DNA of 64,000 nt, taken from the NCBI GenBank assembly GCA_965218295.1, contig CBDCKN010000013.1:544001-608000 (forward strand), written 5' to 3'. Of the stretch, positions 54,663 to 59,026 are shown piece after piece; positions within the stretch are counted from its first letter, which is position 1; every line of letters starts with the position of its first letter. Source of the stretch: Longimicrobiales bacterium (GTDB lineage Bacteria > Gemmatimonadota > Gemmatimonadetes > Longimicrobiales > Gaopeijiaceae). The translations under genes and the position numbers were made by a program. Under the pieces are notes generated by a model, which worked only from the letters and a program-made list of their open reading frames with translations, had not been told where the DNA came from and made no database searches.

Positions 54663-54760
54663 GAGCCGGCTCCCCGGCCTCGGAGGAATTTCTTTGTCGG
54701 TGGCGAGCCGCGTCGGTAGATTGGAGCTACCGACGTGGGCCATTCGATCCGGGAGCAGCG

Positions 54761-55571
54761 ATGCGGCTGCGAGTCCAATACGTCTTTTCTATGGTGACCT
54801 TGGTTGCCCTGTCGGGGTGCGGCGAGACGGCAACGGAGCCGATCGAGCCCACGGGAGCTCTAGACGAGCTTGCCGCGCAGGCGGCAGCAACCGCCGTAGT
54901 CGAGGCGACGGACGCCAGGCTTCCCCACCTCCCCTCCCTGGTCCACGAGGCCCTCGAGGTTGTCAGGTCCGACGACGCCCAGGTCGAAGCCGCCACCGCC
55001 TTCCGACGTGCGCGCCGAGCCCGGATGGCGGCCCGGGAAGCCTACGAAGCTGGTGACGAAAGGCGAAGCCCTTCGCCTCCTGCGTCGGGCCCGCCGGTTC
55101 ACCCTCGAGGGGGTCATCGCGGCGTTGGGTCCGGGCGTCGTCACGGAAGCCATTGCCGGTGTCGAGGCCGCCATCGCCCACTGGGACGAGCGAGTGTCCG
55201 ATCGCGACGTGCCCGAGCGCTTCCTGCGAGCCCTCGAGCACGCCCGGAGGCAGGCGGCGGCGGCCCGGAACGCCGATTCCCCCGTGGCCGCCCTCTCCCA
55301 CGCGCTCATCGCCGCGGAGATCATCCGGGCCCTATCGCCCGCTCACCTCGCCATCCGGGCATTGCGCCACGCGGCTCATGCATTCCGTGGGGCCACAGAG
55401 GCGGTGGGTGATGCCCCCACGGACGACGAGAGGGCAATTCTGGCCGAGGCTCGCCGGGTTCTCTCGAGGGCCGAAGAGGCCTTCTAAAACCACGAGTGGC
55501 GAGCCGCCCTGCGTGCCGCCCTGGCTTCGGCGGAGCTCTCACTCAAGGTCCTCGACGGCCGATCCCCGTAG
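54761..55571 (+). pseudogene. Helical lipoprotein, frameshift near 55060 and in-frame TAA at 55485
   Basis: Lipobox LSGC; Ala-rich helices continue across both lesions. Confidence 0.6.
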
Positions 55572-55619: not shown

Positions 55620-55776
55620 ACCCGTTGACGAGCCAGCTGTACCAGGCGGAGCCCACCGACCCCATGATCCTGGGGAGCGTGGTTCTGGTGCTCTGGCCGT
55701 GGGCCTCGTCGCCAGCTACCTGCCCGGAAGAAGGGCGAGCCGCCTCGATCCTGTGGAAGCGTTGCGGGCGGAGTAG
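55620..55776 (+). pseudogene. C-terminal remnant of an ADOP/MacB-type ABC permease
   Basis: QLYQAEPTDPM ... ASYLPGRRASRLDPVEALRAE*, frameshifted. Confidence 0.75.
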
Positions 55777-56205: not shown

Positions 56206-56344
56206 GTTGTGTTCCGTTACCTCCATAGATAAACGATCGACTGGCGCTCTTGTGACAGTCGGGTCCATTCGGCCTCCCGAGGGTATCGTTTCTTCGCCGG
56301 ACCCCACTCCCCGGACGCAACATGATCGAATGGGCCAGAGTGTG

Positions 56345-57139
56345 ATGACGAACAGACCTCCGCGCCAGGAGAACCTGGACCGCTTCGAGGCCAAGTACGC
56401 CCGTGCTCGGTCGAACGTCGCTCGCCAGATCGGGAAAGAAGCGTGTGGGCACGACTACAGCCTGAGCGGATATACCACGGTCGCTGAGGCCCGAGAACTG
56501 GTACGACACCTAGGCCTGCACCAAGACTCCAGTGTTCTCGATCTCGGAAGTGGCCGGGGGTGGCCCGCCATCCACTTCACGAAGGAGGCTCGCTGCAGGG
56601 TGGTCGCTACGGACGTTCCCCTTCAGGGACTTCAGGAAGCCGGGGAGCACCTACGGTTTCGGGCGGGGGCCGACGCGAGGGCGCTCCCGTTCCGGTCGAG
56701 CTCCTTCGATGCCGTCACTCACTCCGATGTGTTCTGCTGAATTCCGAACAAGCTCTCCGTGCTGAGAGAATGTCGGCGGGTGCTGCGGCCCGGCGGACAC
56801 GTGGGAGGGTGGGTGATCCACACGGCCGAGGGCCTGACCGAGTCCGAAGAGCTTCGTGCCGCCGAGCTGGGCCCACCGGCGGTGCTATCCTCAGTGCCGT
56901 ATTCGGATCTCATTCGTGAAGCCGGTCTCGACCCTAGCCAGCTCACCGACGTAACGGCGGGGTTTCTGAAGACGGTCCAGACCATCCTGAGCTCGCGAGA
57001 GAAATACCGGCGAGCTCTCCTGGAGACGTGTGGCCCCGACGCGCATGAGGAAGAGCAGGAGATGCTCGAGAAGCTGCAGGAAGGGATCCAGACCGGCGTG
57101 CTACGGCGCTCACTGTTCGTGGCGGCCCAGCCTCACTGA
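56345..57139 (+). CDS. Class I SAM-dependent methyltransferase with an in-frame TGA (candidate selenocysteine) at 56738-56740
   Basis: VLDLGSGRG, DARALPF...FDAVTHSDVFC-TGA-IPNKLSVLRECRRVLRPGG in one frame. Confidence 0.8.
56741..56776 (+). promoter_or_regulatory. Bacterial SECIS-like hairpin
   Basis: CCGAACA/TGTCGG lower stem, CTCTC/GAGAG upper stem, loop CGTGCT 17 nt after the UGA. Confidence 0.55.
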
Positions 57140-58539: not shown

Positions 58540-58569
58540 AACTGACCTCGAGCGGTGGGCCGACGATCA

Positions 58570-59026
58570 CCTGGATCCCAAGATCCACCACAACAACCTG
58601 ATCCAGTCGATCCTCGCGAAGATCGAAGCCAATCACGCCGGAGCCGACCATGCCCTGATGCTCGACAGGAGCGGCTTCATCGCCGAGGCCCACGGCACCC
58701 ACGTGTTCTTCGTGAGGCGCGACAAGGTGTTCACCGGCACCACCGAAGCATGGCCGAAGGGGATCACGCGGCAGACGGTGCTGGACCTCTGTGCGGCCAA
58801 CGGGATCGAGCACGAGGTTGGGAGGGTCTCTCTCACTGAAGCCTACGCCGTAGACGAGATGTTCTGTACAGGAACCATGGGAGGGCTGGTGGCGGTTACG
58901 ACGTTGGACGGGCGGACCATTGGCAGCGGGGCGATCGGACCCATGACGAAGCTGCTCTCGGAACTGTATGCCCAGGAGACTGCCTCGAGCGGGTATCAGA
59001 TTCTCACCCCGCAACCCCAGGGCTAG
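58570..59026 (+). pseudogene. C-terminal part of a class IV aminotransferase (IlvE/ADCL-like)
   Basis: LDPKIHHNNL..SILAK, ALMLD..G.IAE, GITR, DEMFCTGT; no N-terminal domain or start. Confidence 0.8.

What the first reader, a model, noticed from the sequence alone, without database searches (positions are those of the whole stretch)
56345..57139. Candidate selenoprotein methyltransferase (Cys-Sec motif with SECIS-like hairpin)
Seen: two track ORFs are one frame joined by a single TGA in HSDVFC-TGA-IPNK, just after SAM motif II where active-site residues usually sit. A two-tier hairpin follows, with a GU in its loop 17-19 nt downstream. Known: the bacterial SECIS lies immediately 3' of the UGA with a G early in the apical loop, and Sec usually aligns to Cys. 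Inferred: a CU-motif methyltransferase, perhaps acting on metalloids or thiols. Caveat: neighbouring genes carry ordinary nonsense mutations.
Basis: partly seen in the sequence, partly recalled or inferred. Interest (0 to 1): 0.72.

Follow-up and report, generated by a model that had tools for sequence, protein, structure and literature searches.

The report
Uncatalogued selenocysteine methyltransferase, Cys/Sec pair
The stop codon in the middle of this methyl-transfer enzyme gene very likely encodes the rare amino acid selenocysteine at the predicted active site. Relatives carry all four sulfur/selenium pairings there, including two stop codons in a row, and the selenoprotein catalogues I could read do not list the family.

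Summary
Confirmed. Window 56345-57139 is one 264-codon class I SAM methyltransferase frame with a single internal TGA (codon 132, after Cys131). The genome has selA, selB, selD and tRNA-Sec. All 34 matching genomes of 401 searched in the order have an internal TGA. Among 80 metagenome homologues the site is Cys-TGA 46 times, Cys-Cys 22, TGA-Cys 6 and TGA-TGA 6. A 16-nt hairpin core after the TGA is kept (one mismatch or none) in 60 of 61 TGA clusters and 0 of 22 Cys-Cys clusters. The pair aligns with the active-site His(-His) of RebM and phosphoethanolamine methyltransferases, not with ArsM's cysteines. No NCBIfam model reaches cut-off, and a 2026 list of 119 families lacks it. The substrate is unknown; arsenite-methyltransferase-like and sulfur-handling neighbours in some soil/sediment-type loci suggest a soft metalloid or chalcogen (about 50%). 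This copy has no such neighbours, and related strains have deleted it. This scan had already noted what appears to be the same family, and a UU member, on other DNA.

The parts
56345..57139 (+). Class I SAM-dependent methyltransferase gene, 264 aa when the internal TGA is read as Sec. An alternative ATG 5 codons upstream (56330) is used by database protein P0205.
56396..56398 (+). Tyr18, conserved in the family; inferred equivalent of the lid Tyr of phosphoethanolamine methyltransferases
   Evidence: Tyr in 85 of 126 rows of A2, 29 rows gapped; mapping inferred from near-colinear structural alignment
56537..56560 (+). SAM-binding motif I (LDLGSGRG, residues 65-72)
56720..56728 (+). His126-x-Asp128, near-invariant family signature after strand beta4
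   Evidence: H 117 and D 117 of 118 ungapped rows
56735..56740 (+). Cys131-Sec132 pair (TGC TGA); aligns to RebM H140-H141 and to the His of AtPMT 'RDTILH'
56744..56776 (+). Predicted bacterial SECIS; the lower stem varies between homologues
56753..56768 (+). Conserved SECIS core CTCTC-CGTGCT-GAGAG (5-bp stem, 6-nt loop with G-U at positions 2-3), overlapping the codons for LSVLR
57137..57139 (+). True terminal stop (TGA), abutting the convergent DUF3095 gene
   Evidence: homologues end here
56261..57014 (.). 754-bp segment (promoter region plus codons 1-223, including the TGA and SECIS) that is missing in same-genus genome G001 and in some contigs of three public runs

Best explanation
This is one intact gene whose internal UGA is very likely read as selenocysteine, giving a predicted SAM-dependent methyltransferase whose Cys131-Sec132 pair likely binds a soft metalloid or sulfur/selenium substrate and holds it for methylation. 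Shown in sequence: the frame, the conserved TGA, Cys in the homologues, the conserved hairpin, the Sec genes and the fold. Inferred (about 0.97): SelB-Sec-tRNA binds the hairpin loop 17 nt after the UGA and inserts Sec. Inferred from profile alignment: the pair sits where RebM and phosphoethanolamine methyltransferases have their active-site His next to the SAM methyl. Inferred (about 0.5): the two adjacent S/Se atoms act together. They would either chelate As(III)/Sb(III)-type species or carry a persulfide/selenide adduct, which then attacks the SAM methyl by SN2; the pair may be left as an S-Se ring that needs re-reduction. All four S/Se permutations occur, which fits a two-atom soft-ligand site better than a single general base. 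In this genome the gene stands alone.
For: Machinery: selA E 3.6e-166, selB, selD with its own in-frame TGA, tRNA-Sec. selA was found in 38 of 39 TGA-bearing genomes; the miss is 78% complete. tRNA-Sec was found in 23 of 25. TGA conservation: 34 of 34 matching genomes in the order, with C-TGA in 30 of 30 loci inspected. Metagenomes: 46 CU, 22 CC, 6 UC, 6 UU of 80. SECIS core within 1 mismatch in 60 of 61 Sec clusters and 0 of 22 CC clusters; synonymous codons there are frozen (CTC 100%, TCC 97%, GTG 100%, AGA 92%) against 36-87% at the other tabulated columns outside the TGA and the K-L-S-V-L-R stretch. Alifold gives the stem only for the Sec set. The half after the TGA is under purifying selection: dN/dS 0.12-0.29 in 9 divergent pairs. 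Model pLDDT 95; PMT-type fold, Z 27.4. Pair alignment. An ArsM-like gene lies 75-1303 bp away in 11 of 95 loci (8 independent clusters); it has its own G-TGA-IAG Sec site in all 6 loci where that site was seen, and Cys in one further locus. Other neighbours include ArsR-rhodanese, MBL/rhodanese, SQR-like and peroxiredoxin genes. A CC/CU link to heavy-metal binding is argued in bioRxiv 10.1101/2022.07.06.499078.
Against: There is no biochemical evidence for Sec insertion, activity or substrate. The hairpin alone is not significant, and a lenient generic SECIS test also passes 13 of 22 CC genes. The core stem is nearly invariant, so it shows no compensatory changes. selA is in 321 of 401 phylum genomes anyway, so co-occurrence is a weak test. 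In the 10 genomes of the order with longer flanks there was no shared operon and no ArsM neighbour, and the window has none. ArsM-like neighbours occur in only 8 of 83 clusters, two of them CC. The closest solved folds methylate O/N/C of organic molecules. The pair is at neither ArsM cysteine position. Related strains have deleted the gene, and 7 of 11 codon changes seen among near-identical strains alter the amino acid.
Confidence: 0.5

Rival explanations
1. Sec is real, but it works as a covalent methyl relay. SAM methylates Sec132 (or Cys131), and the Se-methyl group is then passed to an acceptor, or the enzyme runs as a demethylase or trans-methylase.
For: The pair aligns to residues next to the SAM methyl in PMT/RebM. 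A selenolate is a strong nucleophile (established chemistry, recalled). UC and CU forms both exist, so either position can carry Se.
Against: A relay needs only one nucleophile, yet both positions are Cys or Sec in all 80 metagenome loci. Se-methyl-Sec is a poor methyl donor unless further activated (recalled).
Confidence: 0.2
2. Sec is real, but the enzyme is an ordinary small-molecule O/N/C-methyltransferase. Sec/Cys replaces His as a proton-handling or substrate-binding residue, and the vicinal pair is a redox on/off switch.
For: Fold and cap match PMT, SDMT, RebM, MitM and TleD. Tyr18 and Asp128, inferred counterparts of the PMT catalytic residues, are kept. Most loci have no metal- or sulfur-related neighbour.
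Against: Sec is a poor general base at neutral pH (recalled). Repeated gain of Se at both positions (tree) is hard to explain for a mere switch. ArsM-like selenoprotein genes recur next door.
Confidence: 0.2
3. The family is a true selenoprotein family, but this particular copy is decaying or dispensable in its lineage.
For: A 754-bp deletion of the gene is seen in same-genus G001 and in contigs of runs X2, X4 and X8. 7 of 11 strain codon changes are non-synonymous, including T44A in the conserved GYTT. The protein has an 8-residue deletion relative to most homologues. Broken neighbours and a 5'-truncated ArsM-like gene occur elsewhere in the genome. L023 has a long branch, 0.71.
Against: The frame, all signature residues and the SECIS are intact. 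The short form is shared with proteins at 85% and 63% identity that also end at the Cys before the TGA (P0209, P0003). The model is confident across the deletion. G001 keeps another CU copy (L026).
Confidence: 0.15
4. The TGA is a real stop: a nonsense mutation, a split gene with reinitiation at GTG 56759, or TGA read as Trp.
For: Neighbouring genes are damaged. Gene callers do split it. Three database proteins show W here (P0011, P0032, P0154).
Against: The TGA is at the same column in more than 90 genes across distant lineages and alternates only with Cys codons in DNA. The hairpin follows the TGA state. The break would cut the Rossmann domain. TGA is the commonest stop of long frames in this genome (857 of 1592) and a tRNA-Trp(CCA) is present. 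The W proteins keep KLSVLR and are probably TGA read under another code (not verified).
Confidence: 0.02

Closest known systems
Sec-containing arsenite methyltransferase ArsM (NF008823, motif UxxG) and its fusions NF041536, NF041537, NF047649
   Same: Class I SAM methyltransferase with a Sec/Cys active-site residue and an in-frame SECIS; often the neighbouring gene in this family's loci.
   Different: Scores are far below cut-off (27.6 against 263 bits; 38.6 against 510). The ArsM SNC/SNG position aligns to Asp128 and its W-x-x-C/U site to about residue 173, so the 131-132 pair is at neither. Sec here follows a Cys, not UxxG.
MduS, methyltransferase-domain double selenoprotein (NF045649, motif CxxU per Table 1 of PMC13188914)
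   Same: Bacterial methyltransferase selenoprotein; some members have two Sec.
   Different: 21.7 against 380 bits. The motif is CxxU, not vicinal CU/UC/UU. I could not read the paper that describes it.
Phosphoethanolamine N-methyltransferases (PfPMT, AtPMT), RebM/AtmM, MitM, SDMT, TleD
   Same: Same fold with the C-terminal cap (Z 23-27, rmsd 2.4-3.0 over 220-250 residues). The Asp of 'RDTILH' aligns with Asp128.
   Different: The active-site His (His-His in RebM) is replaced by Cys-Sec; 14-24% identity; no selenium.
CU-motif selenoproteins SaoL, SaoB, SaoC, HgcA, KCU-star (Haft & Gwadz, bioRxiv 10.1101/2022.07.06.499078)
   Same: Vicinal CU/CC motif alternating across homologues, proposed to bind heavy-metal atoms.
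   Different: Unrelated folds; 'methyltransferase' does not occur in that text; no UC or UU permutation in the passages I read.
Algal PDI_e (GUGUU) (PMC7539508)
   Same: Predicted consecutive Sec-Sec, described there as the first such case.
   Different: Eukaryotic, thioredoxin fold, 3'-UTR SECIS that acts at a distance. In bacteria the SECIS lies in the coding region at a constrained spacing, so UU from one hairpin is a different mechanistic question.
Algal/diatom 'methyltransferase' selenoprotein (PMC2375036, PMC7539508)
   Same: A SAM methyltransferase with Sec, called a homologue of a bacterial selenoprotein.
   Different: Its motif is not given in the passages I read and the supplements were unreadable, so its relationship to this family is untested.

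Membership tests
Bacterial selenoprotein gene (SelABCD/bSECIS) | In-frame UGA with homology continuing on both sides | tested here: met
   dN/dS on both halves
Bacterial selenoprotein gene (SelABCD/bSECIS) | UGA aligns to Cys in homologues | tested here: met
   95 of 150 CC; 22 of 80 TGY at the column in DNA
Bacterial selenoprotein gene (SelABCD/bSECIS) | Hairpin with 3-9 nt loop, G in the first two loop positions, 16-37 nt spacing, MFE at or below -7.5 (model as given in PMC13188914 section 5) | tested here: met
   6-nt loop, G at position 2, spacing 17 nt, -12.8 kcal/mol; conserved only in TGA genes
Bacterial selenoprotein gene (SelABCD/bSECIS) | selA, selB, selC, selD in the genome | tested here: met
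Bacterial selenoprotein gene (SelABCD/bSECIS) | Selenium incorporated in the protein | not testable with these tools
   needs 75Se or MS
Class I SAM methyltransferase, PMT/RebM-like | Rossmann-like fold with GxGxG motif and C-terminal cap | tested here: met
Class I SAM methyltransferase, PMT/RebM-like | Active-site His after strand beta4 | tested here: not met
   Cys-Sec at the aligned columns
Class I SAM methyltransferase, PMT/RebM-like | Methyl transfer from SAM | not testable with these tools
   needs an assay
ArsM / Sec-ArsM (NF008823, NF041536, NF041537, NF047649) | Score above the curated cut-off | tested here: not met
   best E among 126 family members only 1e-13 to 1e-18
ArsM / Sec-ArsM (NF008823, NF041536, NF041537, NF047649) | Cys/Sec at the SNC and W-x-x-C/U(xxG) positions | tested here: not met
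   hhalign against a Cys ArsM-like neighbour
MduS (NF045649) | Score above cut-off; CxxU motif | tested here: not met
   21.7 against 380 bits; motif is vicinal CU
DVU_1556 family methyltransferase (NF045667), best NCBIfam hit | Score above cut-off | tested here: not met
   61.4 against 155 bits
Algal 'methyltransferase' selenoprotein | Same Sec position and motif | not tested
   sequence not available in readable text

The most novel reading that the evidence does not exclude
A widespread bacterial methyltransferase family uses new chemistry: a vicinal S/Se pair in place of the catalytic His-His captures and methylates metalloids or sulfane sulfur/selenium. Evolution has tried CC, CU, UC and UU at that site, and in the UU forms one coding-region SECIS directs SelB to insert two consecutive selenocysteines, giving a vicinal diselenide enzyme. 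(UU translation alone I put at about 0.85; the whole statement is lower because the chemistry is untested.)
Probability: 0.4. Interest if true: 0.85.

Novelty: new variant of a known kind. Interest (0 to 1): 0.68.

Why it matters
It adds a family to the bacterial selenoproteome that gene callers routinely cut in two: 68 of 118 database hits end at the Cys before the TGA. It puts Sec at the catalytic-His position of a small-molecule methyltransferase fold, where none of the catalogued Sec methyltransferases I could test has it. The natural CC/CU/UC/UU series with one fixed hairpin makes two questions directly testable: what selenium adds at each position of a vicinal pair, and whether one bacterial SECIS can serve UGAs at two spacings (17 and 20 nt) and two in a row. 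The second bears on SelB mechanism and on making multi-Sec proteins. If the substrate is a metalloid or chalcogen, it is a missed route of environmental methylation.

Tried and rejected
A genome-contig scan with the single protein found only one weak, unrelated-looking hit. A plasmid search found only 27-31% outgroup proteins in Ralstonia, with H at the column. A viral-contig scan for TGA plus SECIS found 0. No sigma-70 promoter-like site was found. The RNA run X20 holds one 207-nt contig matching the 5' part of the gene, which does not show transcription. A generic SECIS-model test was not discriminating (13 of 22 CC genes pass). A search for other genes in the genome with the same hairpin found no convincing second case (2 near-matches of the core genome-wide). 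G691's second TGA, a possible UU in a genome, proved to be the terminal stop; no UU or UC was found in a genome whose Sec genes I could check. ESM Atlas on a natural CC homologue gave only generic methyltransferase names. The careful tree search did not finish, so the quick tree (SH-aLRT only) is used. Papers not readable: Haft & Tolstoy 2025, the RebM and PfPMT structure papers. BSepDB supplement: 0 hits for 'methyltransferase' in the one file held, which is inconclusive because ArsM should be listed somewhere. No complex prediction was run, as no binding claim is made.

Full report
Observation. Window 56345-57139 (+) is one reading frame of 264 codons with one internal TGA at 56738-56740, in HSDVFC-TGA-IPNKLSVLR. 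Read through, it matches Pfam Methyltransf_11 across the TGA (65-153, E 1.2e-17); the upstream half alone covers only model positions 1-71 of 95. The predicted hairpin runs 56744-56776. Its apical stem CUCUC/GAGAG closes the loop CGUGCU, which starts 17 nt after the UGA (MFE -12.8). This fits the bSECIS model as stated in PMC13188914 (section 5 read). Taken alone the fold is unremarkable (z -1.64; 14 of 200 shuffles as good).

Sec machinery. The genome has selA, selB, selD, itself with an in-frame TGA in AG-U-ASK, and tRNA-Sec with anticodon TCA. TGA is otherwise the commonest stop of long frames (857 of 1592), and tRNA-Trp(CCA) is present. selA was found in 38 of 39 genomes with the TGA gene; the exception is 78% complete. 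tRNA-Sec was found in 23 of 25. Because selA is in 321 of 401 phylum genomes (this tally includes G192, flagged unpublished) and kin are not independent, this is consistent rather than decisive.

Homologues. Five relatives at 41-47% identity all have C-TGA at the column. In a phylum sample, 30 of 401 genomes matched. The 10 best (including this genome) and one fragment carry the TGA; the other 19 are a separate outgroup without the pair. In an order sample all 34 matches of 401 have an internal TGA, and the 30 loci fetched are all C-TGA. Of 150 representative proteins, 95 have CC, 26 end exactly at Cys131 and 2 have CW. Of 118 further hits, 68 end at that Cys, 45 have CC, 1 has CW and 4 lacked the motif. 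The best 80 of 493 metagenome loci (selected by similarity to this protein, so not a random sample) give 46 Cys-TGA, 22 Cys-Cys, 6 TGA-Cys and 6 TGA-TGA. After clustering at 90% identity with 14 genome loci there are 51 CU, 22 CC, 6 UC and 4 UU clusters.

SECIS evidence. The 16-nt core CTCTCCGTGNTGAGAG is exact in 52, has one mismatch in 8 and three mismatches in 1 of 61 Sec clusters. In 22 CC clusters the best has two mismatches and the rest four or more. Codons under the core are frozen, including AGA for Arg in 92%. The 5-bp stem is complete in 59 of 61 Sec and 1 of 22 CC clusters, and alifold finds it only in the Sec set. There are one-sided A-U to G-U changes but no compensatory pairs, and the lower stem is not conserved. 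When public-run contigs were laid on the gene, other organisms' contigs matched almost only the TGA-plus-hairpin stretch, and no change within the TGA was listed. The half after the TGA has dN/dS 0.12-0.29 in 9 divergent pairs; a tenth, near-identical pair was uninformative.

UC and UU forms. These keep the same hairpin at the same place, so the loop lies 20 nt from a UGA at position 131 and 17 nt from one at 132, both inside the 16-37 nt model range. The UU genes have no other internal stop, and the pair L107/L127 (75% identical) has dN/dS 0.15 and 0.12 for the two halves. On the quick tree the UU label needs 3 changes, as forced by starred branches. One UU row lies among CU/CC rows and others among UC rows; CC also recurs inside the Sec clade (dyad columns masked, SH-aLRT only, L058 left out). 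All UC/UU come from metagenome contigs, so their Sec machinery is unchecked.

Structure and site. The AlphaFold model has pLDDT 95 and pTM 0.91. Foldseek and VIA rank phosphoethanolamine methyltransferases (Z 27.4), AtmM/RebM, SDMT, TleD and MitM highest. Profile alignments place Cys131-Sec132 on RebM H140-H141 (ESLHH) and Asp128/Sec132 on the D and H of AtPMT RDTILH. PMC7862628 (passages read) describes a His-Tyr dyad near the SAM methyl and Asp128 as base in Plasmodium PMT; PDB titles name H132A, Y19F and D128A mutants. That RebM His140 is catalytic is recalled, as the paper was not held. Tyr18, His126, Asp128 and Cys131 are conserved in the family. I could not read model coordinates, so closeness to SAM is inferred from alignment. 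Against an ArsM-like protein the pair falls on neither arsenic-site position.

Neighbourhood. In the window the gene is solitary, between a small divergent ORF and a convergent DUF3095 gene. Nearby are a truncated aminotransferase, a permease remnant and a frameshifted gene. Ten relatives with about 13-kb flanks share no operon (14 of 68 neighbours scanned). In the 95 loci compared, an ArsM-like gene lies within 75-1303 bp in 11 (8 clusters; only 54 of 83 clusters have 3 kb or more of DNA). It has DLW(T/S)G-TGA-IAG with its own predicted hairpin in the 6 loci where that site was seen, and Cys in one further locus. Peroxiredoxin (5 loci), MFS (6), glyoxalase-like (5), ArsR-rhodanese/MBL-rhodanese (5), HD-GYP/LuxR (4) and one SQR-like plus rhodanese pair also recur (124 of 186 neighbour representatives scanned). 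These point, weakly, to metalloid or sulfane-sulfur handling.

Mechanism. Sec insertion about 0.97. For chemistry I favour a two-atom soft-ligand site that binds a metalloid or S/Se species for SN2 methylation by SAM (0.5), over a Se-methyl relay (0.2) or an ordinary methyltransferase with a redox switch (0.2). The argument is that both positions are always Cys or Sec, in any combination, and that Sec-ArsM genes recur next door; Haft & Gwadz (bioRxiv 10.1101/2022.07.06.499078; passages and section 29 read) argue the same for CC/CU motifs in other folds. Against full current function of this copy: G001 and contigs in three runs lack 56261-57014, and 7 of 11 strain codon changes are non-synonymous.

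Prior art. No NCBIfam 20.0 model reaches cut-off for this protein, and across 126 alignment rows the best E-values are 1e-13 to 1e-22. Table 1 of PMC13188914 (section 7 read whole; 119 families) lists ArsM (UxxG), MduS (CxxU), three ArsM-type fusions and the DNA-repair methyltransferase, but no CU methyltransferase and no adjacent-UU motif. deep-Sep (PMC12013277) has no 'methyltransferase' in its text, nor has BSepDB (PMC13326102). SelCysML (PMC13745706) mentions it only as a false-positive enrichment. Searches found no description of this family. Consecutive Sec-Sec is reported for algal PDI_e (PMC7539508, passages). An algal/diatom Sec methyltransferase exists (PMC2375036, passages), but its motif was not visible to me; supplements that I could not read may bear on novelty. 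Haft & Tolstoy 2025 could not be read. This scan's earlier notes describe what appears to be the same CU family on four other genomes and a UU member on a fifth; I saw only their summaries, after my own analysis.

Verdict. A real, very probably Sec-containing methyltransferase of an uncatalogued, widespread family, with a natural CC/CU/UC/UU series under one hairpin; function unproven. New variant of a known kind, interest 0.68.

Noticed in passing
window 56261-57014; L030 (G001:C1:1200026-1203151): Same-genus genome G001 is 93-97% identical around this locus but lacks exactly 754 bp, leaving the last 40 codons; the same joint is in contigs of runs X2, X4 and X8. G001 keeps a different CU copy (L026).
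   Followed up: yes
L072:5379-6146, L075, L081:709-1524, L107:472-1260, L131:1906-2673, L137:1-456: ArsM-like genes with DLW(T/S)G-TGA-IAG and their own hairpin; SNG rather than SNC in those read in full. A known selenoprotein type, mis-called as ending at the TGA.
   Followed up: partly
G000:C3:31585-31253 (-), C15:218645-219306, C9:124391-123705 (-): The own genome holds a 5'-truncated Sec-ArsM-like remnant, a frameshifted ArsM and an apparently intact Cys ArsM-type gene.
   Followed up: partly
G000:C15:340010-340930 (-): selD is itself a selenoprotein (HGAG-U-ASK), with a hairpin whose loop sequence differs from the methyltransferase's.
   Followed up: partly
L102:1937-2548, L099:2606-3154, L107:3462-4088: A third methyltransferase type (about 205 aa) lies next to family genes. 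By recall it resembles thiol methyltransferases of the TMT1/MddH kind; NCBIfam gave no assignment.
   Followed up: partly
genera g51 and g48: The CU gene is kept in 5 of 5 and 7 of 7 genomes of two small-genome genera (1.7-2.7 Mb), suggesting it is retained under genome reduction.
   Followed up: no
window about 58540-59026 (+), about 55650-55776 (+), about 54760-55487 (+): 5'-truncated branched-chain aminotransferase, frameshifted ABC-permease 3' remnant and a frameshifted lipoprotein-like gene: local gene decay.
   Followed up: partly
P0011, P0032, P0154: Database proteins with Cys-Trp at the pair but the SECIS-encoded KLSVLR; probably TGA read as Trp by a gene caller.
   Followed up: no
G000:C9:278187-280522; C13:71136-71210: A cluster of 17 tRNA genes in 2.3 kb, and a tRNA call with a 4-base anticodon (agca).
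   Followed up: no
L134:725-3481: A 919-aa MBL-rhodanese-sulfite-dehydrogenase-like fusion upstream of a peroxiredoxin and a UU gene.
   Followed up: no
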